DNA of 64,000 nt from Eledone cirrhosa (lineage: Eukaryota), in assembly GCA_964016885.1 (NCBI GenBank), contig OZ024744.1:5642001-5706000 (forward strand), written 5' to 3'. Shown in pieces: positions 1,556 to 60,189 of this stretch. The notes under the pieces were generated by a model, which was not told where the DNA came from, made no database searches, and saw nothing but the letters and a program-made list of their open reading frames with translations. The position numbers were made by a program, and so were the translations under genes. How positions within the stretch are numbered: the stretch's first letter is position 1; each line of letters opens with the position of its first letter.

Positions 1556-2686
1556 TAGGTACCAATCAGTACGAAACATAGCTCTGTCAGCTTCATCTCT
1601 TCTGTTTGCTAAAAAATGTAAAGTAAGTGAGACTGTCACTACTCTCAAACAATAGCATAACGTAAAGGAAATGCTTTTAATTAAGCATACGGTGTATTGC
1701 AAAATACACTATATATACATTCACATATATATAGCTATTTCAGAGCGCCAATTCTAATTTTCAATTTCTACTTGACCGGCAACCGCACTGTATAATCAGT
1801 TCCTGATTATTACTAGAAATTCTATAAGAATCAAACATTCATAATTTTCAGCAAACAGGTGGAGTACTTGGTTTTGATAAGTACCAATCAGTACGAAACA
1901 TAGCCCTGTCAGCTTTATCTCCCCTGTTTCCTGAAAATTTAAAGTAAGTGAGACTGTCACTACTCTAAAACAGTAGCATAAGGTAAATGAAATGCTGCTA
2001 ATTAAGCATACAGTGTATTGAAAAATACACTATATATACATTCACATATATATAGCTATTTCAGAGCGCCAATTCTAATTTTAAATTTCTGCTTGACCGG
2101 CAACCGCTCTGTATAATCAGTTCCCGATTATTACTAGAAATTCTATAAGAAGAAAAATTTTAGGTTCTTCAGCAAACAGGTGGAGTACTTGGCTTTGATA
2201 AGTACCAATCAGTACGAAACATAGCCCTGTCAGCTTTATCTCCCCTGTTTGCTGAAAATTTAAAGTAAGTGAGAGTGACACTACTTTAAAACAATAGCAT
2301 AAGGTCTTCGAAATGCTTTTAATTAAGCATACAGTGTATTGCAAAATACACTATATATACATTCATATATATATATCGCTATTTCAGAGCACCAATTCTA
2401 ATTTACAATTTCTACTTGACCGGCAACCGCTCTGTATAGTATATTCAGATCTTGATTATTACTAGAAATTCTATAAGAATAAAAAAATTCATGATTTTCA
2501 GCAAACAGGTGGAGTACTTGGCTTTGATAAGTACCAATCAGTACGAAACATAGCTCTGTCAGCTTTATCTCCCCTGTTTGCTGAAAATTTAAAGTGAGAC
2601 TGTCACTACTCTAAAACAATAGTAGAAGGTCTTCGAAATGCTTTTAATTAAGCATACAGTGTATTGCAAAATATACTATATATACA

Positions 2687-2771
<85 letters not shown>

Positions 2772-4685
2772 CTATTTCAGAACGCCAATTCTAATTTTCA
2801 ATTTCTGCTTGACCAGCAAACGCTCAGTATAATCAGATCCTGATTATTACTAAAAATTCTATAAGAATCAAACATTCATGATTTTCAGCAAACAGGTGGA
2901 GTACTTGGCTTTGATAAGTACCAATCAGTACGAAACATAGCTCTGTCAGCTTTATCTCCTCTGTTTGCGAAAATTTATTGTAAGTGAGACTGACACTACT
3001 CTAAAACAATAGCATAAGGTCTTCGAAATGCTTTTAATTAAGCATACAGTTATTTGCAAAATACACTATATATACATTCATATATATATCGCTATTTAAG
3101 AGCGCCAATTCTAATTTTCAATTTCTGCTTGACCGGCAACCGCTCTGTATAATCAGTTCCTGATAATTACTAGAAATTCTATAAGAATCAAACATTCATG
3201 GTTTTCAGCAAACAGGTGGAGTACTTGGCTTTGATAAGTACCCATCAGTACGAAACATAGCTTTGTCAGCTTTATCTCCCCTGTTTGCTGAAAATTTAAA
3301 GTAAGTGAGACAGTCACTACTCTAAAGCAATAGCATAAGGTTTTCGAAATGCTTTTAATTAAGCATACAGTGTATTGCAAAATACACTATATATACATTC
3401 ATATATATATCGCTATTTCAGAGCGCCAATTCTAATTTTCAATTTCTGCTTGACCGGCAACAGCTCTGTATAATCAGATCCTGATTATTACTAGAAATTC
3501 TATAAGAATAAAGAATTCATGATTTTCAGCAAACAGGTGGAGTACATGGCTTTGATAGGTACCAATCAGTACGAAACATAGCTCTGTCAGCTTTATCTCT
3601 TCTGTTTGCTAAAAAATGTAAAGTAAGTGAGACTGTCACTACTCTCAAACAATAGCATAACGTAAAGGAAATGCTTTTAATTAAGCATACGGTGTATTGC
3701 AAAATACACTATATATACATTCACATATATATAGCTATTTCAGAGCGCCAATTCTAATTTTCAATTTCTGCTTGACCGGCAACCGCACTGTATAATCAGT
3801 TCCTGATTATTACTAGAAATTCTATAAGAATCAAACATTCATAATTTTCAGCAAACAGGTGGAGTACTTGGTTTTGATAAGTACCAATCAGTACGAAACA
3901 TAGCCCTGTCAGCTTTATCTCCCCTGTTTCCTGAAAATTTAAAGTAAGTGAGACTGTCACTACTCTAAAACTATAGCATAAGGTAAATGAAATGCTGCTA
4001 ATTAAGCATACAGTGTATTGCAAAATACACTATATATACATTCACATATATATAGCTATTTCAGAGCGCCAATTCTAATTTTAAATTTCTGCTTGACCTG
4101 CAACCGCTCTGTATAATCAGTTCCCGATTATTACTAGAAATTCTATAAGAATAAAAATTTTAGGTTTTCAGCAAACAGATGGAGTACTTGGCTTTGATAA
4201 GTACCAATCAGTACGAAACATAGCCCTGTCAGCTTTATCTCCCCTGTTTGCTGAAAATTTAAAGTAAGTGAGAGTGACACTACTTTAAAACAATAGCATA
4301 AGGTCTTCGAAATGCTTTTAATTAAGCATACAGTGTATTGCAAAATACACTATATATACATTCATATATATATATCGCTATTTCAGAGCACCAATTCTAA
4401 TTTACAATTTCTACTTGACCGGCAACCGCTCTGTATAGTATATTCAGATCCTGATTATTACTACAAATTCTATAAGAATAAAAAAATTCATGATTTTCAG
4501 CAAACAGGTGGCGTACTTGGCTTTGATAATTACCAATCAGTACGAAACATAGCTCTGTCAGCTTTATCTCCCCTGTTTGCTGAAAATTTAAAGTGAGACT
4601 GTCACTACTCTAAAACAATAGTAGAAGGTCTTCGAAATGCTTCTAATTAAGCATACAGTGTATTGCAAAATATACTATATATACA

Positions 4686-4780
<95 letters not shown>

Positions 4781-6697
4781 CTATTTCAGAACGCCAATTC
4801 TAATTTTCAATTTCTGCTTGACCAGCAAACGCTCTGTATAATCAGATCCTGATTATTACTAAGAATTCTATAAGAATCAAACATTCATGATTTTCAGCAA
4901 ACAGGTGGAGTACTTGGCTTTGATAAGTACCAATCAGTACGAAACATAGCTCTGTCAGCTTTATCTCCAATGTTTGCTGAAAATTTATTGTAAGTGAGAC
5001 TGACACTCTCTAAAACAATAGCATAAGGTCTTCGAAATGCTTTTAAATGAGCATACAGTTATTTGCAAAATACACTATATATACATTCATATATATATCG
5101 CTATTTAAGAGCGCCAATTCTAATTTTCAATTTCTGCTTGACCGGCAACCGCTCTGTATAATCAGTTCCTGATAATTACTAGAAATTCTATAAGAATCAA
5201 ACATTCATGGTTTTCAGCAAACAGGTGGAGTACTTGGCTTTGATAAGTACCCATCAGTACGAGACATAGCTCTGTCAGCTTTATCTCCCCTGTTTGCTGA
5301 AAATTTAAAGTAAGTGAGACAGTCACTACTCTAAAGCAATAGCATAAGGTTTTCGAAATGCTTTTAATTAAGCATACAGTGTATTGCAAAATACACTATA
5401 TATACATTCATATATATATCGCTATTTCAGAGCGCCAATTCTAATTTTCAATTTCTGCTTGACCGGCAACAGCTCTGTATAATCAGATCCTGATTATTAC
5501 TAGAAATTCTATAAGAATAAAAAATTCATGATTTTCAGCAAACAGGTGGAGTACTTGGCTTTGATAGGTACCAATCAGTACGAAACATAGCTCTGTCAGC
5601 TTTATCACTTCTGTTTGCTAAAAAATGTAAAGTAAGTGAGACTGTCACTACTCTCAATCAATAGCATAACGTAAAGGAAATGCTTTTAATTAAGCATACG
5701 GTGTATTGCAAAATACACTATATATACATTCACATATATATAGCTATTTCAGAGCGCCAATTCTAATTTTTACAATTTCTGCTTGACCGGCAACCGCACT
5801 GTATAATCAGTTCCTGATTATTACTAGAAATTCTATGAGAATCAAACATTCATAATTTTCAGCAAACAGGTGGAGTACTTGGTTTTGATAAGTACCAATC
5901 AGTACGAAACATAGCCCTGTCAGCTTTATCTCCCCTGTTTCCTGAAAATTTAAAGTAAGTGAGACTGTCACTACTCTAAAACAATAGCATAAGGTAAATG
6001 AAATGCTGCTAATTAAGCATACAGTGTATTGCAAAATACACTATATATACATTCACATATATATAGCTATTTCAGAGCGCCAATTCTAATTTTAAATTTC
6101 TGCTTGACCGGCAACCGCTCTGTATAATCAGTTCCCGATTATTACTAGAAATTCTATAAGAATAAAAATTTTAGGTTTTTCAGCAAACAGATGGAGTACT
6201 TGGCTTTGATAAGTACCAATCAGTACGAAACATAGCCCTGTCAGCTTTATCTCCCCTGTTTGCTGAAAATTTAAAGTAAGTGAGAGTGACACTACTTTAA
6301 AACAATAGCATAAGGTCTTCGAAATGCTTTTAATTAAGCATACAGTGTATTGCAAAATACACTATATATACATTCATATATATATATCGCTATTTCAGAG
6401 CACCAATTCTAATTTACAATTTCTACTTGACCGGCAACCGCTCTGTATAGTATATTCATATCCTGATTATTACTAGAAATTCTATAAGAATAAAAAAATT
6501 CATGATTTTCAGCAAACAGGTGGAGTACTTGGCTTTGATAAGTACCAATCAGTACGAAACATAGCTCTGTCAGCTTTATCTCCCCTGTTTGCTGAAAATT
6601 TAAAGTGAGACTGTCACTACTCTAAAACAATAGTAGAAGGTCTTCGAAATGCTTTTAATTAAGCATACAGTGTATTGCAAAATATACTATATATACA

Positions 6698-6788
<91 letters not shown>

Positions 6789-9700
6789 CTATTTCAGAAC
6801 GCCAATTCTAATTTTCAATTTCTGCTTGACCAGCAAACGCTCTCTATAATCAGATCCTGATTATTACTAAAAATTCTATAAGAATCAAACATTCATGATT
6901 TTCAGCAAACAGGTGGAGTACTTGGCTTTGATAAGTACCAATCAGTACGAAACATAGCTCTGTCAGCTTTATCTCCTCTGTTTGCTGAAAATTTATTGTA
7001 AGTGAGACTGACACTACTCTAAAACAATAGCATAAGGTCTTCGAAATGCTTTTAATTAAGCATACAGTTATTTGCAAAATACACTATATATACATTCATA
7101 TATATATCGCTATTTAAGAGCGCCAATTCTAATTTTCAATTTCTGCTTGACCGGCAACCGCTCTGTATAATCAGTTCCTGATAATTACTAGAAATTCTAT
7201 AAGAATCAAACATTCATGGTTTTCAGCAAACAGGTGGAGTACTTGGCTTTGATAAGTACCCATCAGTACGAAACATAGCTCTGTCAGCTTTATCTCCCCT
7301 GTTTGCTGAAAATTTAAAGTAAGTGAGACAGTCACTACTCTAAAGCAATAGCATAAGGTTTTCGAAATGCTTTTAATTAAGCATACAGTGTATTGCAAAA
7401 TACACTATATATACATTCATATATATATCGTTATTTCAGGGCGCCAATTCTAATTTTCAATTTCTGATTGACCGGCAACAGCTCTGTATAATCAGATCCT
7501 GATTATTACTAGAAATTCTATAAGAATAAAAAATTCATGATTTTCAGCAAACAGGTGGAGTACTTGGCTTTGATAGGTACCAATCAGCACGAAACATAGC
7601 TCTGTCAGCTTTATCTCTCCTGTTTGCGGAAAATGTAAAGTAAGTGAGAATGTCACTACTCTCAAACAATAGCATAACGTAAAGGAAATGCTTTTAATTA
7701 AGCATACGGTGTATTGCAAAATACACTATATATACATTCACATATATATAGCTATTTCAGAGCGCCAATTCTAATTTTCAATTTCTGCTTGACCGGCAAC
7801 CGCACTGTATAATCAGTACCTGATTATTACTAGAAATTCTATAAGAATCAAACATTCATAATTTTCAGCAAACAGGTGGAGTACTTGGTTTTGATAAGTA
7901 CCAATCAGTACCAAACATTGCCCTGTCAGCTTTATCTCCCCTGTTTCCTGAAAATTTAAAGTAAGTGAGACTGTCACTACTCTAAAACAATAGCATAAGG
8001 TAAATGAAATGCTGCTAATTAAGCATACAGTGTATTGCAAAATACACTATATATACATTCACATATATATAGCTATTTCAGAGCGCCAATTCTAATTTTA
8101 AATTTCTGCTTGACCGGCAACCGCTCTGTATAATCAGTTCCCGATTATTACTAGAAATTCTATAAGAATAAAAATTTTAGGTTTTTCAGCAAACAGATGG
8201 AGTACTTGGCTTTGATAAGTACCAATCAGTACGAAACATAGCCCTGTCAGCTTTATCTCCCCTGTTTGCTGAAAATTTAAAGTAAGTGAGAGTGACACTA
8301 CTTTAAAACAATAGCATAAGGTCTTCGAAATGATTTTAATTAAGCATACAGTGTATTGCAAAATACACTATATATACATTCATATATATATATCGCTATT
8401 TCAGAGCACCAATTCTAATTTACAATTTCTACTTGACCGGCAACCGCTCTGTATAGTATATTCAGATCCTGATTATTACTAGAAATTCAATAAGAATAAA
8501 AAAAATCATGATTTTCAGCAAACAGGTGGAGTACCTGGCTTTGATAAGTACCAATCAGTACGAAACATAGCCCTGTCAGCTTTATCTCTCCTGTTTGCTG
8601 AAAATGTAATGTAAGTGAGACTGTCACTACTCTAAAAGAATAGCATAAGGTCATCGAAATGCTTTTAATTAAGCATACAGTGTATTGCAAAATACACTAT
8701 ATATACATTCATATATATATCGCTATCTCATAGCGCCAATTCTAATTTTCTATTTCTGCTTGACCGGCAACCGCTCTGTATAGTATAATCAGATCCTGAT
8801 TATTACTAGAAATTCTATAAGAATAAAAAAATTCATGATTTTCAGCAAACAGGTGGAGTACTTGGCTTTGATAAGTACCAATCAGTACGAGACATAGCTC
8901 TGTCAGCTTTATATCCCCTGTTTGCTGAAAATTTAAAGTAAGTGAGACTGACACTACACTAAACAATAGCATAAGGTCTTCGAAATGCTTTTAATTTAGC
9001 ATACAGTGTATTGCAAAGTACACTATATATATATACATATATATATATAGCTATTTCAGAGCGCCAATTCTAATTTTCAATTTCAGCTTGACCGGCAACC
9101 GCTCTGTATAATCAGATCCTGATTATTACTAGAAATTCTATAAGAATCAAACATTCATGATTTTTAGCAAACAGGTGGAGTATTTGTTTTTGATAAGTAC
9201 CAATCAGTACGAAACATAGCTCTGTCAGCTTTGTCTCCCCTGTTTGCTGAAAATTTAAAGTAAGTGAGACTGTTACTACTCTAAAACAATAGCATAAGGT
9301 CATCGAAATGCTTTTAATTAAGCATACAGTGTATTGCAAAATACACTATATATATACATTCATATATATATATAGTTATTTCAGATCGCCAATTCTAATT
9401 TTTAATATCTGCTTGACCGGCAACCGCTCTGTATAATCAGATCCTGATTATTACTAGAAATTCTATAAGAATCAAACATTCATGATTTTCAGCAAGTAGG
9501 TGGAGTATTTGGCTTTGATAAGTACCAATCAGTACGAAACATAGCTCTGTCAGATTTATCTCCCCTGTTTGCTGAAAATATAAAGTAAGTGAGACTGTCA
9601 CTACTCTAAAAGAATAGCATAAGGTCATCGAAATGCTTTTAATTAAGCATACAGTGTATTGCAAAATACACTATATATACATTCATATATATATCGCTAT

Positions 9701-12700
9701 TTCATAGCGTCAATTCTAATTTTCTATTTCTGCTTGACCGGCAACCGCTCTGTATAGTATAATCAGATCCTGATTATTACTAGAAATTCTATAAGAATAA
9801 AAAAATTCATGATTTTCAGCAAACAGGTGGAGTACTTGGCTTTGATAAGTACCAATCAGTACGAAACATAACTCTGTCAGCTTTATCTCCACTGTTTGCT
9901 GAAAATTTATTGTAAGTGAGACTGACACTCTCTAAAACAATAGCATAAGGTCTTCGAAATGCTTTTAATTAAGCATACAGTTATTTGCAAAATACACTAT
10001 ATATACATTCATATATATATCGCTATTTCAGAGCGCCAATTCTAATTTTCAATTTCTGCTTGACCGGCAACCGCACTGTATAATCAGTTCCTGATTATTA
10101 CTAGAAATTCTATGAGAATCAAACATTCATAATTTTCAGCAAACAGGTGGAGTACTTGGTTTTGATAAGTACCAATCAGTACGAAACATAGTTCTGTCAG
10201 CTTTATCTCCCCTGTTTGCCGAAAATTTAAAGTAAGTGAGACAGTCACTACTCTAAAGCAATAGCATAAGGTTTTCGAAATGCTTTTAATTAAGCATACA
10301 GTGTATTGCAAAATACACTATATATACATTCATATATATATCGCTATTTCAGAGCGCCAATTCTAATTTTCAATTTCTGCTTGACCGGCAACAGCTCTGT
10401 ATAATCAGATCCTGATTATTACTAGAAATTCTATAAGAATAAAAAATTCATGATTTTCAGCAAACAGGTGGAGTACTTGGCTTTGATAGGTACCAATCAG
10501 TACGAAACATAGCTCTGTCAGCTTTATCTCTTCTGTTTGCTAAAAAATTGTAAAGTAAGTGAGACTGTCACTACTCTCAAACAATAGCATAACGTAAAGG
10601 AAATGCTTTTAATTAAGCATACGGTGTATTGCAAAATACACTATATATACATTCACATATATATAGCTATTTCAGAACGCCAATTCTAATTTTCAATTTC
10701 TGCTTGACCAGCAAACGCTCTGTATAATCAGATCCTGATTATTACTAAACATTCTATAAGAATCAAACATTCATGGTTTTCGGCAAACAGGTGGAGTACT
10801 TGGCTTTGATAAGTACCCATCAGTACGAAACATAGCTCTGTCAGCTTTATCTCCCCTGTTTGCTGAAAATTTAAAGTAAGTGACACAGTCACTACTCTAA
10901 AGCAATAGCATAAGGTTTTCGAAATGCTTTTAATTAAGCATACAGTGTATTGCAAAATACACTATATATACATTCATATATATATCGCTATTTCAGAGCG
11001 CCAACTCTAATTTTCAATTTCTGCTTGACCGGCAACAGCTCTGTATAATCAGATCCTGATTATTACTAGAAATTCTATAAGAATAAAAAATTCATGATTT
11101 TCAGCAAACAGGTGGAGTACTTGGTTTTGATAAGTACCAATCAGTACGAAACATTGCCCTGTCAGCTTTATCTCCCCTGTTTCCTGAAAATTTAAAGTAA
11201 GTGAGACTGTCACTACTCTCAAACAATAGCATAACGTAAAGGAAATGCTTTTAATTAAGCATACGGTGTATTGCAAAATACACTATATATACATTCACAT
11301 ATATATAGCAATTTCAGAGCGCCAATTCTAATTTTCAATTTCTGCTTGACCGGCAACCGCACTGTATAATCAGTTCCTGATTATTACTAGAAATTCTATA
11401 AGAATCAAACATTCATAATTTTCAGCAAACAGGTGGAGTACTTGGTTTTGATAAGTACCAATCAGTACGAAACATTGCCCTGTCAGCTTTATCTCCCCTG
11501 TTTCCTGAAAATTTAAAGTAAGTGAGACTGTCACTACTCTAAAACAATAGCATAAGGTAAATGAAATGCTGCTAATTAAGCATACAGCGTATTGCAAAAT
11601 ACACTATATATACATTCACATATATATAGCTATTTCAGAGCGCCAATTCTAATTTTAAATTACTGCTTGACCGGCAACCGCTCTGTATAATCAGTTCCCG
11701 ATTATTACTAGACATTCTATAAGAATAAAAATTTTAGGTTTTTCAGCAAACAGATGGAGTACTTGGCTTTGATAATTACCAATCAGCACGAAACATAGCC
11801 CTGTCAGCTTTATCTCCCCTGTTTGCTGAAAATTTAAAGTAAGTGAGAGTGACACTACTTTAAAACACTAGCATAAGGTCTTCGAAATGCTTTTAATTAA
11901 GCATACAGTGTATTGCAAAATACACTATATATACATTCATATATATATATCGCTATTTCAGAGCACCAATTCTAATTTACAATTTCTACTTGACCGGCAA
12001 CCGCTCTGTATAGTATATTCAGATCCTGATTATTACTAGAAATTCAATAAGAATAAAAAAAATCATGATTTTCAGCAAACAGGTGGAGTACCTGGCTTTG
12101 ATAAGTACCAATCAGTACGAAACATAGCCCTGTCAGCTTTATCTCCCCTGTTTGCTGAAAATGTAATGTAAGTGAGACTGACACTACTCTAAAACAATAG
12201 CATAAGGTCTTCGAAATGCTTTTAATTAAGCATACAGTGTATTGCAAAATACACTATATATACATTCATATATATATCGCTATTTCAGAGCGCCAATTCT
12301 AATTTTCAATATCTGCTTGACCGGCAACCGCTCTGTATAATCAGATCCTGATTATTATTAGAAATTCTATAAGAATCAAACATTCATGATGTTCAGCAAG
12401 CAGGTGGAGTATTTGGCTTTGAAAAGTACCCATCAGTACGAAACATAGCTCTGTCAGATTTATCTCCCCTGTTTGCTGAAAATATAAAGTAAGTGAGACT
12501 GTCACTACTCTAAAAGAATAGCATAAGGTCATCGAAATGCTTTTAATTAAGCATACAGTGTATTGCAAAATACACTATATATACATTCATATATATATCG
12601 CTATTTCATAGCGCCAATTCTAATTTTCTATTTCTGCTTGACCGGCAACCGCTCTGTATAGTATAATCAGATCCTGATTATTACTAGAAATTCTATAAGA

Positions 12701-13882
12701 ATAAAAAAATTCATGATTTTCAGCAAACAGGTGGAGTACTTGGCTTTGATAAGTACCAATCAGTACGAAACATAGCTCTGTCAGCTTTATATCCCCTGTT
12801 TGCTGAAAATTTAAAGTAAGTGAGACTGACACTACACTAAACAATAGCATAAGGTCTTCGAAATGCTTTTAATTAAGCATACAGTGTATTGCAAAGTACA
12901 CTATATATATATTCATATATATATATAGCTATTTCAGAGCGCCAATTCTAATTTTCAATTTCAGCTTGACCGGCAACCGCTCTGTATAATCAGATCCTGA
13001 TTATTACTAGAAATTTTATAAGAATCAAGCATTCATGATTTTTAGCAAACAGGTGGAGTACCTGGCTTTGATAAGTACCAATCAGTACGAAACATAGCTG
13101 TGTCAGATTTGTCTCCCCTGTTTGCTGAAAATTTAAAGTAAGTGAGACTGTTACTACTCTAAAATAATAGCATAAGGTCATCGAAATGCTTTTAATTAAG
13201 CATACAGTGTATTGCAAAATACACTATATATATACATTCATATATATATATAGTTATTTCAGATCGCCAATTCTAATTTTCAATATCTGCTTGACTAGCA
13301 ACCGCTCTGTATAATCAGATCCTGATTATTACTAGAAATTCTATAAGAATCAAACATTCATGATTTTCAGCAAGTAGGTGGAGTATTTGGCTTTGATAAG
13401 TACCCATCAGTACGAAACATAGCTCTGTCAGATTTATCTCCCCTGTTTGCTGAAAATATAAAGTAAGTGAGACTGTCACTACTCTAAAAGAATAGCATAA
13501 GGTCATCGAAATGCTTTTAATTAAGCATACAGTGTATTGCAAAATACACTATATATACATTCATATATATATCGCTATTTCATAGCGCCAATTCTAATTT
13601 TCTATTTCTGCTTGACCGGCAACCGCTCTGTATAGTATAATCAGATCCTGATTATTACTAGAAATTCTATAAGAATAAAAAAATTCATGATTTTCAGCAA
13701 ACAGGTGTAGTACTTGGCTTTGATAAGTACCAATGAGTACGAAACATAGCTCTGTCAGCTTTATCTCCCCTGTTTGCTGAAAATTTAAAGTGAGACTGTC
13801 ACTACTCTAAAACAATAGTACAATGTCTTCGAAATACTTTTAATTAAGCATACAGTGTATTGCAAAATATACTATATATACA

Positions 13883-13945
<63 letters not shown>

Positions 13946-14579
13946 CTATTTAATAGCGCCAATTCTAATTTTCTATTTCTGCTCGACCGGCAACCGCTCT
14001 GTATAGTATAATCAGATCCTGATTATTACTAAAAATTCTATAAGAATCAAGCATTCATGATTTTCAGCAAGCAGGTGGAGTATTTGGCTTTGATAAGTAC
14101 CCATCAGTACGAAACATAGCTCTGTCAGATTTATCTCCCCTGTTTGCTGAAAATATAAAGTAAGTGAGACTGTCACTACTCTAAAAGAATAGCATAAGTT
14201 CATCGAAATGCTTTTAATTAAGCATACAGTGTATTGCAAAATACACTATATATACATTCATATATATATCACTATTTCATAGCGCCAATTCTAATTTTCT
14301 ATTTCTGCTTGACCGGCAACCGCTCTGTATAGTATAATCAGATCCTGATTATTACTAGAAATTCTATAAGAATAAAAAAATTCATGATTTTCAGCAAACA
14401 GGTGGAGTACTTGGCTTTGATAAGTACCAATCAGTACGAAACATAGCTCTGTCAGCTTTATCTACCCTGTTTGCTGAAAATTTAAAGTGAGACTGTCACT
14501 ACTCTAAAACAATAGTACAAGGTCTTCGAAATGCTTTTAATTAAGCATACAGTGTATTGCAAAATATACTATATATACA

Positions 14580-14632
<53 letters not shown>

Positions 14633-15568
14633 CTATTTCAGAGCGCCAATTCTAATTTTCAATTTCCGCTTGACCAGCAAACGCTCTGTATAATCAGATC
14701 CTGATTATTACTAAAAATTCTATAAGAATCAAACATTCATGATTTTCAGCAAACAGGTGGAGTACTTAGCTTTGATAAGTACCAATCAGTACGAAACATA
14801 ACTCTGTCAGCTTTATCTCCCCTGTTTGCTGAAAATGTAAAGTAAGTGAGACTGACACTACTTTAAAACAATAGCATAAGGTCTTCGAAATGCTTTTAAT
14901 TAAGCATACAGTGTATTGCAAAATACACTATATATACATTTATATATATATCGCTATTCCAGAGCGCCAATTCTAATTTTCAAATTCTGCTTGACCGGCA
15001 ACCGCTCTGTATAATCAGATCCTGATTATTACTAGAAATTCTACAAGAATCAAACATTCATGATGTTTAGCAAACAGGTGGAGTATTTGGCTTTCATAAG
15101 TACCAATCAGTACGAAACATAACCCTGTCAGCTTTATCTCCCCTGTTTCCTGAAAATTTAAAGTAAGTGAGACTGTCACTACTCTAAAACAATAGCATAA
15201 AGGTCATCGAAATGCTTTTAATTAAGCATACAGTGTATTGCAAAATACACTATATATACATTCATATATATATCGCTATTTCAGAGCACCATTTCTAATT
15301 TTCAATTTCTGTTTGACCGGGAACCGCTCTGTATAATCAGATCCTGATTATTACTAGAAATTCTATAAGAATCAAAATTTAAAGTTTTTCAGCAAACAGG
15401 TGGAATACTTGGCTTTGATAAGTACCAATCAGTACGAAACATAGCTCTGTCAGCTTTATCTCCCCTGTTTGCTGAAAATGTAAAGTAAGTGAGACTGACA
15501 CTGCTCTAAAACAATAGCATAAGGTCTTCGAAATGCTTTTAATTAAGCATACAGTGTATTGCCAAATA

Positions 15569-15575
<7 letters not shown>
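1556..15575 (+). repeat. Tandem array of 43 monomers of about 321 bp carrying type I hammerhead ribozymes (retrozyme-like satellite)
   Basis: GTACGAAACATAG or a close variant recurs 43 times at about 321-329 bp spacing, longer where the internal (AT)n is expanded. Consensus HHR is GGCT-TTGATAA-GTAC-CAATCA-GTAC-GAAA-CATAGCTCTG-TC-AGCT. The first unit is truncated inside the core. Confidence 0.93.
2495..2587 (+). ncRNA. Representative type I hammerhead ribozyme of the array (monomer 4)
   Basis: Distal stem I TTTTCAGCAAACAGG/CCTGTTTGCTGAAAA (15 bp), then GGAG/CTCC, an internal loop and GGCT/AGCT. Core TTGATAA (2524-2530), stem II GTAC/GTAC, GAAA (2545-2548), stem III ACA/TGT. Predicted cut GUC|A after 2560. 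Confidence 0.88.
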
Positions 15576-27037: not shown

Positions 27038-27086
<49 letters not shown>

Positions 27087-30200: not shown

Positions 30201-30597
30201 ACGGACCCAGAAGGGCTTCCAGGCGTCTAAAGAAGTCCGGCCGTCCTTCCCCAGTAGGAGCATAGACGGCCACCAGTCTAAAGGCACCACCTTCATTATT
30301 GTTCACGTCCAGGACCACCAACTTCCCGTCCGGGTCCCGGAAGATCGACCTTACATCGAGATCCAGGCCTTTCCTAAACAGCACTGCCACCCCGCCTCCC
30401 ATTCCCGGCCGGCTAACAGATGCAAAGATCTGATAGTCGTCGAAAATGGGGGCTAGTGCGCGCGTGTCGGAAATCCTGGTCTCGCTGACTGCAATTACAT
30501 CCATTTCTATAGACCCGAGGTCGTTGTGCAGGTGACCCTGCTTCCAGGACGATCCCAGGCCTCGAACATTTAAACATCCTACTCTTAATACGGCCAT
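27274..30597 (-). pseudogene. LINE ORF2 (AP endonuclease + reverse transcriptase), disrupted
   Basis: ORF track pieces 30058-30597, 29900-30115, 28563-29150, 28018-28386 and 27581-28021 are collinear parts of one ORF2. Confidence 0.88.
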
Positions 30598-30628
30598 GTT
30601 GGCAGGTTAAACAGAGAGAGAGGTTAGT

Positions 30629-32591: not shown

Positions 32592-32855
32592 GTTTTATTT
32601 TCTTCGTAAATTTTTTAACATGTAAAAAAAAAAGTTCAAATATTTGGGCCAAAAGGCCCAAATATTATACTTTCCCCTTCACGGGGCAAAGTCTAAGGGC
32701 TTATATCCTTTACACAAGAAATAGTTAACAATAAATAATTTAAACAGGCAAATAAAGCGACTTACTGTGAGGGAGCAAAATACGTCCGCTTAGACCAATA
32801 ATAATAATAAATAAATAAATTATTGTATCTGAAGCTCTCTTCCACCGTGGAAATA

Positions 32856-35015
32856 TTAAGGAAGGATGTCTGTATATTACATATAAGAAATATTAAGGAA
32901 GGATGTCTGTATATTACATATAAGAAATATAAGGAAGGATGTCTGTATATTACATATAAGTAATATAAGGAAGGATGTCTGTATATTACATATAAGACAT
33001 ATAAGGAAGGATGTCTGTATATTACATATAAGTAATATAAGGAAGGATGTCTGTATATTACATATAAGTAATATAAGGAAGGATGTCTGTATATTACATA
33101 TAAGTAATATAAGGAAGGATGTCTGTATATTACATATAAGAAATATAAGGAAGGATGTCTGTATATTACATATAAGTAATATAAGGAAGGATGTCTGTAT
33201 ATTACATATAAGTAATATAAGGAAGGATGTCTGTATATTACATATAAGAAATATAAGGAAGGATGTCTGTATAGTACATATAAGTAATATAAGGAAGGAT
33301 GTCTGTATATTACATATAAGTAATATAAGGAAGGATGTCTGTATATTACATATAAGAAATATAAGGAAGGATGTCTGTATATTACATATAAGAAATATAA
33401 GGAAGGATGTCTGTATAGTACATATAAGTAATATAAGGAAGGATGTCTGTATATTACATATAAGAAATATAAGGAAGGATGTCTGTATATTACATATAAG
33501 AAATATAAGGAAGGATGTCTGTATAGTACATATAAGTAATATAAGGAAGGATGTCTGTATATTACATATAAGAAATATAAGGAAGGATGTCTGTATATTA
33601 CATATAAGAAATATAAGGAAGGATGTCTGTATATTACATATAAGAAATATAAGGAAGGATGTCTGTATATTACATATAAGTAATATAAGGAAGGATGTCT
33701 GTATATTACATATAAGAAATATAAGGAAGGATGTCTGTATATTACATATAAGAAATATAAGGAAGGATGTCTGTATATTACATATAAGAAATATAAGGAA
33801 GGATGTCTGTATATTACATATAAGAAATATAAGGAAGGATGTCTGTATATTACATATAAGAAATATAAGGAAGGATGTCTGTATATTACATATAAGAAAT
33901 ATAAGGAAGGATGTCTGTATATTACATATAAGTAATATAAGGAAGGATGTCTGTATATTACATATAAGAAATATAAGGAAGGATGTCTGTATATTACATA
34001 TAAGAAATATAAGGAAGGATGTCTGTATATTACATATAAGAAATATAAGGAAGGATGTCTGTATAGTACATATAAGAAATATAAGGAAGGATGTCTGTAT
34101 ATTACATATAAGAAATATAAGGAAGGATGTCTGTATAGTACATATAAGTAATATAAGGAAGGATGTCTGTATATTACATATAAGTAATATAAGGAAGGAT
34201 GTCTGTATATTACATATAAGAAATATAAGGAAGGATGTCTGTATAGTACATATAAGTAATATAAGGAAGGATGTCTGTATATTACATATAAGAAATATAA
34301 GGAAGGATGTCTGTATAGTACATATAAGTAATATAAGGAAGGATGTCTGTATAGTACATATAAGTAATATAAGGAAGGATGTCTGTATATTACATATAAG
34401 TAATATAAGGAAGGATGTCTGTATATTACATATAAGTAATATAAGGAAGGATGTCTGTATAGTACATATAAGTAATATAAGGAAGGATGTCTGTATATTA
34501 CATATAAGAAATATAAGGAAGGATGTCTGTATATTACATATAAGTAATATAAGGAAGGATGTCTGTATAGTACATATAAGTAATATAAGGAAGGATGTCT
34601 GTATAGTACATATAAGTAATATAAGGAAGGATGTCTGTATATTACATATAAGTAATATAAGGAAGGATGTCTGTATATTACATATAAGTAATATAAGGAA
34701 GGATGTCTGTATAGTACATATAAGTAATATAAGGAAGGATGTCTGTATATTACATATAAGTAATATAAGGAAGGATGTCTGTATAGTACATATAAGTAAT
34801 ATAAGGAAGGATGTCTGTATATTACATATAAGTAATATAAGGAAGGATGTCTGTATATTACATATAAGTAATATAAGGAAGGATGTCTGTATATTACATA
34901 TAAGTAATATAAGGAAGGATGTCTGTATAGTACATATAAGTAATATAAGGAAGGATGTCTGTATATTACATATAAGTAATATAAGGAAGGATGTCTGTAT
35001 ATTACATATAAGTAA
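32856..35015. repeat. 36-bp minisatellite, about 60 copies
   Basis: Unit ATAAGGAAGGATGTCTGTATATTACATATAAGTAAT with two main polymorphic sites and no spacers. Confidence 0.95.
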
Positions 35016-35099
35016 CACAACACAAACAGACTGAACAGACAAATAACAAACACAATACATTGTATTGGCTACAACCGCAACAGCTCCCTCACTACAGAA

Positions 35100-38000
35100 C
35101 CACTACCCTATCTCTACCACCACTACCCTAAATCCACCACCACTACCACTACCCTATCTCTACCACCACTACCCTAAATCCACCACCACTACCACTACCC
35201 TATCTCTACCACCACTACCCTAAATCCACCACCACTACCACTGCCCTATCTCTACCACCACTACCCTAACTCCACCACCACTACCACTACCCTAATTCTA
35301 CCACCACTACCACTACCCTATATCCACCACCACTACCACTACCCTATCTCTACCACCACTACCCTAAATCCACCACCACTACCACTGCCCTATCTCTACC
35401 ACCACTACCCTAACTCCACCACCACTACCACTGCCCTATCTCCACCACCACTACCACTACCCTATATCCACCACCACTACCCTAACTCCACCACCACTAC
35501 CACTACCCTATCTCTACCACCACTACCCTAACTCCACCACCACTACCACTGCCCTATCTCCACCACCACTACCACTACCCTATATCCACCACCACTACCC
35601 TAACTCCACCACCACTACCACTACCCTATCTCTACCACCACTACCCTAACTCCACCACCACTACCACTGCCCTATCTCCACCACCACTACCACTACCCTA
35701 TATCCACCACCACTACCCTAACTCCACCACCACTACCACTACCCTATCTCCACCACCACTACCCTAACTCCACCACCACTACCACTACCCTATCTCTACC
35801 ACCACTACTCTAACTCCACCACCACTACCACTACCCTAATTCTACCACCACTACCACTACCCTATATCCACCACCACCACCACCACTACCACTACCCTAT
35901 CTCTACAACCACCACCACTACTCTACCACCACCACCACTACCACTACATTATCTCCACCACCACTACCACTACCCTATCACCACCACCACTACCACTACC
36001 CTAACTCTACCACCACCACCACTACCACTACCCTATCTCCACTACCACCACCCTATCTCCACCACCACTACCACTACCCTATCTCCACCACCACTACCAC
36101 TACCCTATCTCCACCACCACCACCACTACCACCACCCTATCTCCACCACCACTACCACTACCCTAACTCTACCACCACCACCACTACCACCACCCTATCT
36201 CCACCACCACTACCACTACCCTGTCTCTACCACCACTACCACTACCACCACCCTATCTCCACCACCACTACCACTACCCTAACTCTACCACCACCACCAC
36301 TACCACTACCCTATCTCCACCACCACTACCACTACCCTATCTCCACCACCACCACCACTACCACCACCCTATCTCCACCACCCTATCTCCACCACCACTA
36401 CCACTACCCTAACTCTACCACCACCACCACTACCACTACCCTATCTCCACCACCACTACCACTACCCTATCTCCACTACCACCACCCTATCTCCACCACC
36501 ACCACCACTACCCTATCTCCACCACCACTACCACTACCCTATCTCCACCACCACTACCCTATCTCCACCACCACTACCACTACCCTGTCTCTACCACCAC
36601 TACCACTACCACCGCCCTATCTCCACCACCACTACCACTACCCTATCTCCACTACCACTACCCTATCTCCACCACCACTACCACTACCCTATCTCCACTA
36701 CCACCACCCTATCTCCACCACCACTACCACTACCCTGTCTCTACCACCACTACCACTACCACCGCCCTATCTCCACCACCACTACCACTACCCTATCTCC
36801 ACTACCACTACCCTATCTCCACCACCACTACCACTACCCTATCTCCACTACCACCACCCTATCTCCACCACCACTACCACTACCCTGTCTCTACCACCAC
36901 TACCACTACCACCGCCCTATCTCCACCACCACTACCACTACCCTATCTCCACTACCACTACCCTATCTCCACCACCACTACCACTACCCTATCTCCACTA
37001 CCACTACCCTATCTCCACTACCACTACCCTATCTCCACCACCACTACCACTACCCTATCTCCACTACCACTACCCTATCTCCACTACCACTACCCTATCT
37101 CCACCACCACTACCCTATCTCCACCACCACTACCACTACCCTATCTCCACTACCACTACCCTATCTCCACTACCACTACCCTATCTCCACCACCACTACC
37201 ACTACCCTATCTCCACTACCACTACCCTATCTCCACTACCACTACCCTATCTCCACCACCACTACCCTATCTCCACCACCACTACCACTACCCTATCTCC
37301 ACTACCACTACCCTATCTCCACTACCACCACCCTATCTCCACCACCACCACCACTACCCTATCTCCACCACCACTACCACTACCCTATCTCCACCACCAC
37401 TACCCTATCTCCACCACCACTACCACTACCCTATCTCCACTACCACTACCCTATCTCCACTACCACTACCCTATCTCCACTACCACTACCCTATCTCCAC
37501 CACCACTACCACTACCCTATCTCCACTACCACTACCCTATCTCCACTACCACTACCCTATCTCCACCACCACTACCACTACCCTATCTCCACTACCACTA
37601 CCCTATCTCCACCACCACTACCACTACCCTATCTCCACTACCACTACCCTATCTCCACCACCACTACCACTAACCTAACTCTACCACCACCACCACTACC
37701 ACTACCCTATCTCCACTACCACCACCCTATCTCCACCACCACTACCACTAACCTAACTCTACCACCACCACCACTACCACTACACTATCTCCACTACCAC
37801 TACCCTATCTCCACCACCACTACCACTACCCTATCTCCACCACCACTACCACTAACCTAACTCTACCACCACCACCACTACCACTACCCTGTCTCTACCA
37901 CCACTACCACTACCACCGCCCTATCTCCACCACCACTACCACTACCCTATCTCCACTACCACCACCCTATCTCCACCACCACTACCACTACCCTATCTCC

Positions 38001-38856
38001 ACCACCACTACCACTAACCTAACTCTACCACCACCACCACTACCACTACCCTGTCTCTACCACCACTACCACTACCACCGCCCTATCTCCACCACCACTA
38101 CCACTACCCTATCTCCACTACCACCACCCTATCTCCACCACCACTACCACTACCCTATCTCCACCACCACTACCACTAACCTAACTCTACCACCACCACC
38201 ACTACCACTACCCTGTCTCTACCACCACTACCACTACCACCGCCCTATCTCCACCACCACTACCACTACCCTATCTCTACCACCACTACCACTACCACTA
38301 CCCTATCTCCACCACCACTACCACTAACCTAACTCTACCACCACCACCACTACCACTACCCTATCTCCACTACCACCACCCTATCTCCACCACCACTACC
38401 ACTACCCTGTCTCTACCACCACCACCACTACCACTACCCTATCTCCACCACCACTACCACTAACCTAACTCTACCACCACCACCACTACCACTACCCTAT
38501 CTCCACTACCACCACCCTATCTCCACCACCACTACCACTACCCTGTCTCTACCACCACCACCACTACCACTACCCTATCTCCACCACCACTACCACTAAC
38601 CTAACTCTACCACCACCACCACTACCACTACACTATCTCCACCACCACTACCACTACCCTATCACCACCACCACTAGCACCACCATCATTCCCCCACCGC
38701 CACCACTACTCCACCACCACCACCACCACTACTACTCCACCACTACCACCACCACTATTCCCCCACCGCCACCACTACTCCACCACCACCACTACCACTA
38801 CTCCACCACCACCGCCACGACTACTGCACCAACACTACCACCACCACCACCACCAC
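35100..38856. repeat. C-rich (CCA/CTA)-based satellite with mainly 20- and 26-bp units
   Basis: Units CCCTATCTCCACTACCACTA and CCCTATCTCCACCACCACTACCACTA, with CCCTAA variants; extreme C/G strand skew. Confidence 0.92.
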
Positions 38857-39708: not shown

Positions 39709-39802
39709 TCCCTTGACAAGTTCTGCTATTTATTTACCAGGCTAAAAATTTTAATTTAGTCCAGAAATAGCCGTCGAAACAGCTTGAGCTCTGCCGTCGG
39801 GG
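39709..39802 (+). ncRNA. Degenerate type I HHR (U3-A8), PLE pseudo-LTR family also at 793-870, 41567-41620 and 50632-50810
   Basis: TCCC-TTGACAA-G...GCTATTT...AAATAGCCGTC-GAAA-C...G-TC-GGGG. Other copies give the intact stem III CGGCT/AGCCG. Confidence 0.5.
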
Positions 39803-39890
39803 TCATATTTTTTCCTATTACCCACTCTACTACCCTAAGTATTGAGGACTCAGGTGCGTTATGGTCCAGCTGGTTCCTTACCACAATTCC

Positions 39891-39925
<35 letters not shown>

Positions 39926-39930
<5 letters not shown>

Positions 39931-40262
39931 ATTAGGATTGGTGCTCTGAAATAGCGATGTATACATGAATATATGTATAGATATTTGGCAATATACTTTA
40001 TGCTTAATTACAAACACTTTGAAGACCTTGCGCTATTATTTTAAATTAGTGACTATGTCGCTTACTTCTTTTTTCAACAAACAAAGGGAGATAAGCTGAC
40101 AGATCTGTTTCACACTGTTGGTGTTCATCAGAGCTTAGCACTCGCCGATGTTTGTTGAAAATTATAGATGCTGGATTCTTCTAGAATTCCAGTAATAATC
40201 AGGAACTGATTATACAGAGCGCTTGCCGGTCCAGTTCAGAGCACCAATCCTAATTTTCAATT
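39926..40262 (-). mobile_element. Solo diverged monomer of the HHR satellite (dispersed retrozyme-like insertion)
   Basis: Reverse complement is collinear with the 321-bp monomer; abuts (AT)n; 25-bp inverted terminal duplication at 39926-39950 / 40235-40259. Confidence 0.88.
40071..40161 (-). ncRNA. Canonical type I hammerhead ribozyme in the solo monomer
   Basis: Minus strand TTTTCAACAAACA...AAGCT-CTGATGA-ACAC-CAACA-GTGT-GAAA-CAGATCTG-TC-AGCTT...TGTTTGTTGAAAA; predicted cut between 40098 and 40097. Confidence 0.9.
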
Positions 40263-40264: not shown

Positions 40265-41322
40265 TGGAGTCAGGCACCACTGTGGGGTTTGGAGGCCGCA
40301 CGAAAACAGGCAAGGCGGTGCTGGTCGAGCTGGTGCGTGAGCCTGTCTGAGGCCAGATTGCACTCGATGGCATCCCAAGTGGTTTGAGAGGACTTGACGT
40401 CAACAGGGGGAGAAGGATGAGGGACGTTTACTGGGCTAAGTCCCAGCCGGTCCCATATATCACAGGCGGCCTCACGTTCTCTGAACACAGAGGGTTCTAT
40501 TGTGTTTAGAAGAACCCTGCTGACAAGGTTGCGGCACGAGATTACCGACGAAAGATACGCCGGCAAAGCCAGTGAGATCGGGGGCGGGAGGCCAAGGCCA
40601 CCATACCTGACAGGTAAAGTAGCCTGTTGGCATCCAATGTCCTCAAACTTGAAGTTGCATATCTCCTCGGCTGCTGCTCGGATACAAGTATCGAGGTCAA
40701 CGAGGAGAGATGTCTGAGTGTAGCATGGAGCGCTGCGGAGTGTATAGAGGAGCTTCGGCATGACGAAGCAGTTTCTCAACAGAAAGAGGGCTGGGTGGCC
40801 TTCGATCAAGCCCAGTCGGCTCGTGAGAGTTTGGAGTTATTGAAGCCTGGACCTGATGGTGGAGCAGATGGCTGGCGGGTGGATCGGTGACCCGAGGATG
40901 AGAACATCCTATTTAGGGGTCACCTGTACCTGGTGGAGAATGGACCGCACGTCCGAGACGGAGGCTGCAAAGCTCTCAGCATGGTGGCTGACATTCACCA
41001 CCTCCGACTTGGCCGAGTTGACCTGGAGGCCGATGCCCGCCAGGGCAGGAACCAGCGATTGTAGGTCATCAACGTAGCATCATCCAGATACCAAACATTG
41101 AGAGCGGCAGTGATACTCCGAACGATGTAGTCTATACCAAGGGCAAACAAGAGGGGTCCCAAAGGGTCGCCCTGTTGAACCCCAGTGGCCAAAGGTATGA
41201 CCGTATCAGCAGCAAGGAGCATGATCGGGCCTCCATACAACAGGTAGGCCAGCGGGTAGGCAGAGGGGGCTCGGCTGAGCAGGCATCGAGCAGATGGTCC
41301 CGGCGTAAGCAGTTGAATACAG
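40265..41322 (-). pseudogene. CRE-clade non-LTR retrotransposon RT fragment
   Basis: GVQQGDPLGPLLFAL, WYLDD, ALFLLRNCF.MPKLLYTLRSAP and QATLPVRYGGLGL. Confidence 0.8.
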
Positions 41323-41558: not shown

Positions 41559-41629
41559 AAAATATATAGGAACCGGTAAGACCCCGACGGCTGAGCTCAA
41601 GCCGTTTCGACGGCTAATTCTTCGTTAAA

Positions 41630-42584: not shown

Positions 42585-43127
42585 TTGTTATACTTTGGGA
42601 GGGTCATGTTGCCAATAAGAAACACACGCACCTTTCACTTCAATTTATTATATATTTATAAATTTATAAATTTACACATTTACAAACTTATAAATTTCTG
42701 GTTGGTTGGTTGGTTCCACAACCAGATAGTTGTTTATATATAGTCATAGTCCTTTCGTCACACACTATGTGACCTCTTCAGTGACTGGGGATTCCTTTCT
42801 TTGTTTCTGTGCCTTTCCTTTCTTCTATCCTACGCCATTTTGTTTCTGTGTGTGTGTTGTGTGCTCAGTTTGCGCATGCGCCACATCCGGGTGTCTGTGT
42901 GTGTTTGTGTTCATTTATCTATTTGTTTATTTATTTATTTATTCATTGTTGGTTGGTTGTTTGTTCTATGTGTGTGTGTGTTTTCATTTTGTCCTGTGTG
43001 TGTTTTCATTTTGTCCTTAATTGTAAGTTGTTTGTTCTATTGGCAACATGACCCTCCCAAAGTATAACAATATCGGTTTCAACACACGATTTCAGATAAA
43101 GAATCTTGCTAAACAAATTCAGAAACG

Positions 43128-43128
<1 letters not shown>
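42585..43128 (-). mobile_element. PLE pseudo-LTR with HHR (42742-42786, -) and inverted 3'-end duplication
   Basis: Reverse complement of about 55735-56198; HHR AGTCA-CTGAAGA-G-GTCACA..TGTGAC-GAAA-GGAC-TA-TGACT; (AT)n flanks. Confidence 0.75.
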
Positions 43129-46968: not shown

Positions 46969-47004
<36 letters not shown>

Positions 47005-47019
47005 TCAACAAGCATTATA

Positions 47020-49850: not shown

Positions 49851-49928
49851 ATATATACATATATGTAGTTCTATTTAAATTGTTGGGATACAACAAGCAA
49901 ATATTTTTATAATTATTGGAGTAAAAAT

Positions 49929-50353
<425 letters not shown>

Positions 50354-50633: not shown

Positions 50634-50708
50634 GAAGGAAATGTGGTAAGGAACCAGGTGGACCATAACGCACCAAAGTACTCAATACTTAGGGTAGTAG
50701 AGTGGGTA

Positions 50709-50810: not shown

Positions 50811-50909
50811 ATATATATATATGTAAAAGGTAAACAGAAATAACAACACAATCGGTACAGTATATGGAAGGAATATATTAGGTTAATGCTTGAAATAGCA
50901 GGAAGAGGG

Positions 50910-53149: not shown

Positions 53150-53225
<76 letters not shown>

Positions 53226-53366
53226 TTTACGTATCGAGAAAGAGAAAAAATACATATAGTTATTTGCCAAGTAGCGTATGCCAAAGGTGCTCGATACTAG
53301 TGCCGGCAGTATTAAATATTCGAAGTGTTAATATTTAGTGGGCTAGAGAGTTAGCAGAGCGTAAGC

Positions 53367-55010
<1,644 letters not shown>

Positions 55011-55480: not shown

Positions 55481-56405
<925 letters not shown>

Positions 56406-60170: not shown

Positions 60171-60189
60171 CGAGGAGGAGGGCAGTGGG

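What the first reader, a model, noticed from the sequence alone, without database searches (positions are those of the whole stretch)
39894..40262. Solo monomer carries a Penelope-style insertion signature, pointing to PLE-driven mobilisation
Seen: about one unit length (39926-40234) lies on the minus strand with its 3' end fused to (AT)n. Its 5' end is followed by an inverted copy of its own 3'-terminal 25 bp. Its ends are permuted relative to the HHR cut site. The same geometry is seen for PLE fragments in this window (42585-43128, 49929-50195). The array also begins and ends in AT repeats. Inference: a non-coding RNA is reverse transcribed in trans by a PLE RT/GIY-YIG from a circular or multimeric template.
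Basis: inference. Interest (0 to 1): 0.78.

Follow-up and report, generated by a model that had tools for sequence, protein, structure and literature searches.

The report
Ribozyme repeat with Penelope insertion footprint
This is a scattered copy of a small self-cutting RNA repeat (a retrozyme), and the way such copies are joined to the genome matches the footprint of Penelope-type retrotransposons, direct support for a proposed but untested idea that these RNAs borrow Penelope's enzymes to spread.

Summary
39926-40234 (minus) is one unit of a dispersed 317-nt type I hammerhead family, 92-95% like other genomic copies but only about 76-80% like the local array. Its 3' end is fused to (AT)n. 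The inverted arm is 32 bp, not 25: it holds the 7 nt the main arm lacks, so it was copied from a longer-than-unit template, not from its own DNA end. It abuts a cut LINE, not (AT)n. In 77 insertions, ends are not freely permuted: 94 of 121 outward 3' ends fall at two sites 35-40 nt apart, 85 of those 94 on (AT)n, none with poly(A). In 19 of 20 head-to-head insertions one arm is long and one short. That is the PLE 'tail' signature, which intact Neptune- and Hydra-clade PLEs of this genome share. PLE-driven mobilisation is well supported (0.85). Circle versus uncleaved multimer is undecided, and no partner PLE with shared sequence was found. Verdict: new member of a known kind (non-LTR retrozyme), with junction evidence I did not find in print.

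The parts
39894..39926 (.). (TA)n tract, inferred target, to which the long-type 3' end is fused
   Evidence: 16.5 copies, 100%
39926..40234 (-). Main arm: unit positions u1-u310 of the 317-nt retrozyme subfamily B
   Evidence: (96.1% to the in-script majority unit)
39926..39965 (-). 'Tail': the 40 nt between the short (about u270) and long (u303-312) end sites; present here, so this arm is long-type
   Evidence: end census; coordinates read
40071..40162 (-). Type I hammerhead with long basal stem; core 40131-40125, predicted cut after 40098; palindromic short stem III
   Evidence: 95% of cells paired, 8 of 24 pairs with changes on both sides; not found by Rfam at gathering score
40235..40266 (+). 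Inverted arm, u286-u317 (32 bp); its 3' end abuts the main arm's start (u1) in template coordinates
   Evidence: (d = 0)
40265..41317 (-). RT + restriction-like endonuclease LINE copy (CRE-like, label recalled), cut at the junction; 2-nt microhomology at 40265-40266; its 3' part (about 0.7 kb) is missing
39765..39893 (+). Unrelated repeat X ending on the other side of the same (TA)n
   Evidence: 89.9% to 50634-50762; same neighbour in L036, L052, L059
42586..43128 (.). Neptune-clade PLE end, head-to-head: minus arm at the short site, plus arm (43038-43128) at the long site; (AT)n both sides
55481..56199 (+). Neptune-clade PLE 3' end: GIY-YIG C-terminus, pLTR with minimal hammerhead, long end on (AT)n
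49868..50195 (.). Family Y, head-to-head, one long and one short end on AT repeats; no ORF link shown
53223..54885 (.). Hydra-clade PLE end, palindromic, with a tail on one arm only
1557..15571 (+). Tandem array of sister subfamily A (321-nt unit), also dispersed genome-wide with the same two end sites

Best explanation
A dispersed insertion of a non-coding hammerhead retrozyme, made by target-primed reverse transcription by the RT/GIY-YIG protein of a Penelope-like element acting in trans. Steps: (1) Tandem or partial-tandem copies give an RNA longer than one unit or a circle [shown: arms cross the cut site and exceed one unit; circle versus multimer not shown]. (2) A PLE protein nicks (AT)n on both strands [target shown; enzyme inferred]. 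(3) RT starts inside the RNA at one of two fixed sites, about u270 and u303-312, both in predicted loops and 130-175 nt from the ribozyme cut [ends shown; loops predicted]. (4) Each DNA strand primes its own cDNA, usually one at each site, giving head-to-head arms with a 35-40-nt tail on one side only [geometry shown; two-primer model inferred from PMC11167929]. (5) The 5' ends join at variable points. In this solo the first cDNA started at u310 and stopped at u1. The second started at u317 on the LINE-side end with 2 nt of microhomology and ran 32 nt, as in twin priming on one RNA, with loss of target DNA [inferred, about 60%; a later deletion is the alternative].
For: Census of 77 insertions: 94 of 121 outward 3' ends at two windows covering 7.6% of the unit; (AT)n at 85 of 94 of them versus 3 of 27 other 3' ends and 7 of 33 5' ends; 46 of 77 head-to-head; 19 of 20 two-arm insertions with both ends canonical pair long with short (50% expected, p 2e-5); 0 of 121 with 6 or more A. 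Replicates: 11 of 11 in subfamily A, 5 of 6 in the tail-anchored set. Controls: Neptune-clade element, 39 of 40 ends at two sites about 60 nt apart and 9 of 9 opposite-arm loci long+short (counted by hand); Hydra-clade element, two sites 158 nt apart, 3 of 4 pairs. In the tail-anchored set, 24 of 45 arms run through the cut (counted by hand) and 2 of 45 start within 10 nt of it. Repeated segments within an insertion agree at 89% of subfamily-diagnostic sites versus 56% between insertions. L201 of subfamily A repeats the solo's geometry with AT-rich flanks on both sides. Literature: the tail is the stretch between two internal RT start sites and is described as unique to PLEs (PMC11167929); inverted 5'-truncated copy, 30-40-bp tail often at one end, (TA)n targets (PMC8557442).
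Against: No sequence link to an autonomous PLE: local alignment scores against the Neptune-1, Neptune-2 and Hydra-1 pLTRs were within or near the shuffled range (best 9 of 200, one of 14 non-control comparisons), and 30 of 76 tail copies with unusual downstream sequence showed no shared ORF continuation. Tail lengths of the two intact families (about 60 and 158 nt) differ from the retrozyme's 35-40. Those families look younger: 2.1-2.5% between arms (7 and 4 loci, chosen as best protein matches, so biased young) versus 6.1% for retrozyme B. The short site lies in the unit's own AT-like tract, so it is fuzzy by about 6 nt and could partly reflect microhomology or AT slippage. The solo has (AT)n on one side only and no testable TSD. 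Abutment of the second arm is only a weak general trend: 6 of 11 within 25 nt (permutation p 0.03), 5 of 10 without the solo (p 0.10), 1 of 7 in subfamily A and 0 of 1 in the tail set. No pile-up of arm length at one unit (12 arms at 300-325 nt versus 17 and 10 in flanking bins).
Confidence: 0.85

Rival explanations
1. Same mobilisation, but the solo's right junction is secondary: it was an ordinary two-arm insertion flanked by (AT)n, and a later deletion removed most of the second arm, the AT tract and the LINE's 3' part. This rival concerns only this locus and is compatible with the best explanation.
For: About 0.7 kb of the LINE 3' end is missing; 2-nt microhomology fits end-joining; 24 of 27 off-site 3' ends sit in non-AT DNA; abutment was not replicated in subfamily A.
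Against: The arm ends exactly at u317, next to the main arm's start (chance about 1 in 317 for an exact hit); L201 shows nearly the same arms with AT-rich flanks on both sides.
Confidence: 0.4
2. Fold-back or self-priming: the inverted arm is copied from the element's own new DNA end (the first reader's wording; related to the antisense self-priming model of PMC3846280).
For: 25 of 25 identity between the arms; palindromic junctions are reported for PLEs.
Against: The arm continues into 7 linker bases absent from the main arm instead of into (AT)n. The two arms' 5' starts are within 15 nt of each other in 3 of 33 two-arm insertions, 3.2 expected by chance.
Confidence: 0.05
3. SINE-like mobilisation by a LINE, with L1-type twin priming producing the 5' inversion.
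For: The solo's arms have the in-place inversion geometry described for L1 twin priming (PMC2837659); LINEs are abundant (2483 candidates for the flanking family).
Against: No poly(A) at 121 ends; two internal fixed start sites with long/short pairing; the adjoining LINE is cut by the element and its copies do not end on (AT)n.
Confidence: 0.04
4. The copies are 5'-truncated ends (pLTRs) of an autonomous PLE not yet found, inserted in cis.
For: Geometry equals that of true PLE ends; Xenopus retrozymes resemble pLTRs; only a small part of the family was read.
Against: Copies wrap from u317 to u1 with no ORF: 39 of 77 have an arm longer than one unit, up to 703 nt in B and over 1900 nt in A; stops in all three sense frames; no ORF continuation.
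Confidence: 0.04
5. MITE-like DNA transposon with 25-bp terminal inverted repeats, or a DNA-level escapee of the local satellite array.
For: A perfect 25-bp inverted repeat brackets the unit; a related array lies 24 kb away.
Against: Inverted arms range from 23 nt to over 500 nt and 31 of 77 insertions have none; the solo is only about 76-80% like the array.
Confidence: 0.02

Closest known systems
Non-LTR retrozymes of metazoans (Cervera and de la Pena 2020, PMC7229834; passages and Discussion read)
   Same: About 300-nt non-coding low-GC unit with a type I hammerhead, in monomers, partial tandems and long arrays; co-occurs with PLEs; PLEs named there as strong candidate mobilisers.
   Different: That paper predicts tandem cDNA from circles and, in what I read, gives no junction analysis ('target site' 0, 'inverted' 0 hits). 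Here copies have two fixed internal 3' ends, (AT)n targets and head-to-head arms. Expression and circles are untested here.
Li, Clavereau, Pollet 2026 preprint (10.64898/2026.07.22.740005; parts 1-3 of 5 read, whole text searched for terms)
   Same: Argues that animal retrozymes are non-autonomous PLE derivatives; counts solo monomers.
   Different: Its evidence is co-occurrence and pLTR homology in Xenopus; 'tail' and 'junction' have 0 hits in the main text. Here the evidence is the insertion footprint, and pLTR homology was looked for and not found.
Poseidon element PAc in vitro (Frangieh et al. 2024, PMC11167929; parts 1-2 of 4 read)
   Same: Two internal RT start sites bounding a tail, AT-rich targets, both strands extended, hammerhead cleavage not needed.
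   Different: PAc is autonomous and its start sites lie in the ORF; the retrozyme has no ORF. No strand difference in start site was seen there; the genomic long/short pairing counted here suggests the two priming events are coupled.
Neptune, Hydra and Naiad PLE clades, and non-autonomous Chlamys such as MRC1 (Craig et al. 2021, PMC8557442; passages, section 11 and one supplement search)
   Same: Inverted 5'-truncated arm, tail at one end, (TA)n preference; non-autonomous PLEs with head-to-tail copies exist.
   Different: Non-autonomous Chlamys resemble their partners at the 3' end; this family shows no such match to the PLEs I recovered. Naiads lack canonical hammerheads and were not recovered here.

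Membership tests
Non-LTR retrozyme | Short (170-400 nt) low-GC repeat unit | tested here: met
   317-nt unit; sister array 321 nt, GC 0.30-0.34
Non-LTR retrozyme | Type I hammerhead with conserved core and stems | tested here: met
   Core invariant or U3-A8 variant in 14 natural copies of three subfamilies; 95% of cells paired, 31 cells with changes on both sides versus at most 10 for slid controls. Structure was drawn by me; changes are few events inherited by subfamilies. Rfam gave no hit.
Non-LTR retrozyme | Non-coding | tested here: met
   Stops in all three sense frames of the unit; no ORF of 150 aa or more at the locus
Non-LTR retrozyme | Tandem copies with two ribozymes | tested here: met
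   Met by the family: 10 of 77 insertions have one arm crossing the cut twice. The solo itself has one ribozyme, a 'monomer' in the preprint's terms.
Non-LTR retrozyme | Self-cleavage and accumulation as circular RNA | not testable with these tools
   Needs bench assays or RNA reads
PLE-type insertion | (TA)n or AT-rich target | tested here: met
   85 of 94 canonical 3' ends
PLE-type insertion | 30-40-nt tail between two internal RT start sites, often at one end only | tested here: met
   Ends at about u270 and u303-312; 19 of 20, 11 of 11 and 5 of 6 long+short pairs
PLE-type insertion | Inverted 5'-truncated arm, partial tandems | tested here: met
   46 of 77 head-to-head; 39 of 77 with an arm over one unit
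PLE-type insertion | Target-site duplication | tested here: inconclusive
   Unreadable inside (AT)n; at the solo the LINE continuation is absent on the far side
Autonomous PLE | RT + GIY-YIG ORF | tested here: not met
Non-autonomous derivative of a named PLE family | Homology to the partner's pLTR or 3' end | tested here: not met
   Not met for Neptune-1, Neptune-2, Hydra-1 and 14 flanking segments, most holding other PLE fragments; other families, Naiads included, not sampled
MITE | Fixed terminal inverted repeats and fixed TSD | tested here: not met
   Variable arms; 31 of 77 without inversion
SINE / LINE-mobilised | Poly(A) or LINE-type 3' tail | tested here: not met
   0 of 121 3' ends followed by 6 or more A

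The most novel reading that the evidence does not exclude
A protein-free ribozyme RNA with no detectable sequence kinship to its host enzyme recruits a PLE dimer by structure alone. The two RT active sites prime on one RNA, possibly a circle, at two loop sites 35-40 nt apart, one per DNA strand. This would explain the near-obligate long/short pairing and the solo's abutting arms, and would make these AT-targeting hammerhead families a natural structure-function series for the PLE RNA-recognition signal.
Probability: 0.3. Interest if true: 0.72.

Novelty: new member of a known kind. Interest (0 to 1): 0.5.

Why it matters
Which enzyme spreads animal retrozymes has been open since they were described in 2020; the published arguments I saw are co-occurrence and pLTR similarity. 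The tail footprint is described as unique to PLEs, so finding it on thousands-of-copies non-coding hammerhead families is mechanism-level evidence. It also gives exact predicted RT start sites for the existing in vitro PLE assay. The ends do not map to the ribozyme cut, so the cleaved linear monomer is not the main template. The single locus is ordinary; the value lies in the family census.

Tried and rejected
Rfam at gathering score found no hammerhead in the window. Pfam found nothing for the PLE fragments, the flanking LINE fragment or the 1241-aa ORF; clades were assigned from motifs listed in PMC8557442 (Neptune: CX2-5CxxC linker; Hydra: RWK, DKT, CxCX5C, read by eye). Short-window folding of six motifs gave weak z-scores. 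RNAalifold on a first alignment with badly chosen subfamily C coordinates was uninformative and was replaced. A first census wrongly merged some loci; it was redone by coordinates (9 duplicate loci dropped, 5 added from the first search). A peptide resemblance between the retrozyme tail and the Neptune N-terminus was seen by eye but had no support at DNA level (107 of 200 shuffles as good) and was dropped. Chimeras L033 and L048, where the retrozyme runs into Hydra-clade GIY-YIG sequence, involve different families, so they name no partner. The idea that family Y is the pLTR of the L033/L045 Hydra family was not supported. The self-inverted-arm age estimate for retrozymes (8.6-9.5%) is noisy and was not used. 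Arm-length pile-up as a circle test was negative. Sequencing runs: no RNA holder listed; no reads were laid. The hammerhead-anchored census cannot contain single arms that start at the cut, so only the tail-anchored set was used for that question. Earlier findings: none by place or sequence. Three retrozyme motifs had no hit in the one PMC8557442 supplement held, a metadata table; its sequence files and the preprint's supplements were not seen and may bear on partner identity.

Full report
1. Observation. The window is C28:5642001-5706000 of a 3.0-Gb animal genome. The segment 39926-40234 reads on the minus strand as one repeat unit, its 3' end fused to a perfect (TA)n. A perfect 25-bp inverted repeat joins 39926-39950 with 40235-40259. 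Full-length matches to units of the array at 1557-15571 are 75.5-79.7%, while dispersed copies are 92-95% identical (2805 candidates, 40 scored). The solo is therefore a member of a sister subfamily (B), not an escapee of the array (A). Tandem copies elsewhere show the unit is 317 nt, with an 8-nt linker (20 of 30 counted junctions). The inverted arm is u286-u317, 32 bp, and carries the 7 linker bases u311-u317 that the main arm (u1-u310) lacks. It cannot be a plain copy of the element's own DNA end. The two arms are adjacent pieces of a template at least 342 nt long, with the upstream piece flipped in place. Beyond it lies a LINE copy; 11 other copies show it is cut mid-ORF, shares 2 nt with the arm, and its 3' part is not on the far side of the solo.

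2. What the unit is. It holds a type I hammerhead (core 40131-40125, cut after 40098). Rfam does not find it. An alignment of 14 natural copies from subfamilies A, B and a third, C, keeps 95% of cells paired, with 8 of 24 pairs changed on both sides, far above slid controls. I drew the structure myself and the changes are few inherited events, so this is support, not proof. Circular folds of the majority units are 4.9 (B) and 5.9 (A) SD below 60 shuffles. All three sense frames have stops. A 28-nt tail motif has 1279 exact matches, mostly subfamily C in the 25 insertions read; A has 2080 candidates. This meets the sequence definition of a non-LTR retrozyme.

3. Junction census. I took all 87 exact matches to two 31-nt hammerhead patterns and reduced them to 77 insertions. 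Of 121 outward 3' ends, 94 fall at u266-279 (true break about u270, blurred by the unit's AT-like tract) or u303-312. Of these, 85 sit on (AT)n, against 3 of 27 other 3' ends and 7 of 33 5' ends. None has a poly(A). 46 of 77 are head-to-head. Among 33 simple two-arm insertions, 20 have both ends at canonical sites and 19 of those pair one long with one short end (p 2e-5). Subfamily A gives 11 of 11 (26 loci, L193 left out as cut off; these were best full-length hits) and the tail-anchored set 5 of 6. The 5' starts are scattered and not mirrored between arms (3 of 33, 3.2 expected), which argues against fold-back. 39 of 77 have an arm over one unit. In the tail-anchored set, which is not biased about the cut, 24 of 45 arms run through it (counted by hand) and 2 start within 10 nt of it, one exactly at it. 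Repeated segments inside one insertion agree at 89% of 12 diagnostic sites against 56% between insertions, so both arms come from one source. Arm lengths show no pile-up at one unit, so circle and uncleaved multimer cannot be told apart.

4. Controls in the same genome. The fragment 42586-43128 and 55481-56199 belong to a high-copy element (28189 candidates) with an open 1241-aa RT + GIY-YIG frame and Neptune-type motifs. In 30 loci, 39 of 40 ends lie at two sites about 60 nt apart on (AT)n, and 9 of 9 opposite-arm loci pair long with short (counted by hand). A Hydra-clade element (927 aa) has two ends 158 nt apart, 3 of 4 pairs mixed. Family Y (49868-50195) has the same geometry with about 88 nt between ends, but no ORF link in 16 loci. 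The retrozymes thus share the footprint of bona fide PLEs.

5. Mechanism. PMC11167929 showed in vitro that a PLE protein nicks AT-rich DNA, extends both strands, starts RT at two internal RNA sites whose spacing is the genomic tail, and does not need hammerhead cleavage. PMC8557442 describes inverted 5'-truncated arms, a 30-40-bp tail often at one end, and (TA)n targets. The retrozyme census fits each point. Both start sites fall in predicted loops: the short one in a small hairpin loop, the long one in an unpaired stretch closed by a stem that needs the next unit's first bases. I infer priming from both strands by a PLE protein in trans (0.85). For the solo, the second arm starts at u317, five bases past the long cluster and flush with the main arm's start, like twin priming (PMC2837659). 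L201 of subfamily A is nearly the same product with AT-rich flanks on both sides. As a rule, abutment is weak: 6 of 11, 5 of 10 without the solo (p 0.10), 1 of 7 in A. A later deletion remains a real alternative for this one junction (0.4).

6. What was not found. There was no homology to the pLTRs of the two intact families, of a second Neptune family, or to 14 flanking segments. No ORF continuation appeared behind the tail in 30 of 76 atypical copies. The intact families look younger than retrozyme B (2.1-2.5% versus 6.1% between arms), though they were picked as best matches. Older Neptune and Hydra fragments of 30-75% protein identity are common in the flanks, and Naiads, which also target (TA)n, were not sampled. 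The partner is unknown.

7. Known and new. Non-LTR retrozymes and the PLE-partner hypothesis are published (PMC7229834; preprint 10.64898/2026.07.22.740005). I found no paper that maps retrozyme junctions or reports the PLE tail on them, in searches and term searches. The library lacks most subscription papers, I did not read Cervera and de la Pena 2014, and supplements were mostly unseen. PMC3846280 (passages) already reports PLE action in trans, a tail on one of the inverted pLTRs, and insertions without TSD joined by microhomology. An earlier scan note on another genome (e1-7858806) led me to that paper; it is not independent support. Verdict: new member of a known kind; the locus alone is ordinary, the family-wide footprint is useful mechanistic evidence. 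Interest 0.5.

Noticed in passing
window 1557-15571: The array's hammerhead core is the compensated U3-A8 variant; the same variant core appears in the Hydra-clade pLTR (L254) and in the inverted family near 16790-16830.
   Followed up: partly
window 2671-2769, 4670-4778, 6682-6786, 13867-13943, 14564-14630: Internal (AT)n expansions of the array lie in the unit's own AT tract, which is the short RT start site; the first three are about 2.0 kb apart (higher-order repeat). The unit may carry its own target, allowing self-insertion.
   Followed up: no
window 39765-39893, 795-871, 41566-41621, 50634-50812; L036, L052, L059: Repeat X ends on (AT)n, looks hammerhead-like by eye, and shares an AT tract with a retrozyme copy in four loci.
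   Followed up: partly
window 15639-16939: Another head-to-head family with a tail on one arm and AT/CT repeats on both sides; 98% between arms.
   Followed up: no
L033 about 1478; L048 about 1427: Off-site retrozyme 3' ends run straight into the GIY-YIG region of Hydra-clade PLEs of two different families: chimeric cDNA or nested insertion.
   Followed up: partly
L158-L187: Subfamily C shares most of the unit with B but has a rewritten hammerhead basal stem with compensatory changes.
   Followed up: yes
L153, L254, L255: Open full-length PLE frames: Neptune-type 1241 aa with an asparagine-rich insert, and Hydra-type 927 aa; tens of thousands of candidate copies each; no Pfam hit for the first.
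   Followed up: partly
window 47000-49200: Older, broken Hydra-clade PLE.
   Followed up: no
window 32852-35015 and 35099-38812: A 36-bp minisatellite (60 copies, 97% alike) and a strongly C-skewed 20/26/46-bp minisatellite side by side.
   Followed up: no
window 20914-20985: Weak tRNA-like Rfam match (35 bits), perhaps a SINE head.
   Followed up: no
window 25804-31900 and 60028-62401: Broken LINE copies with endonuclease and RT remnants.
   Followed up: no
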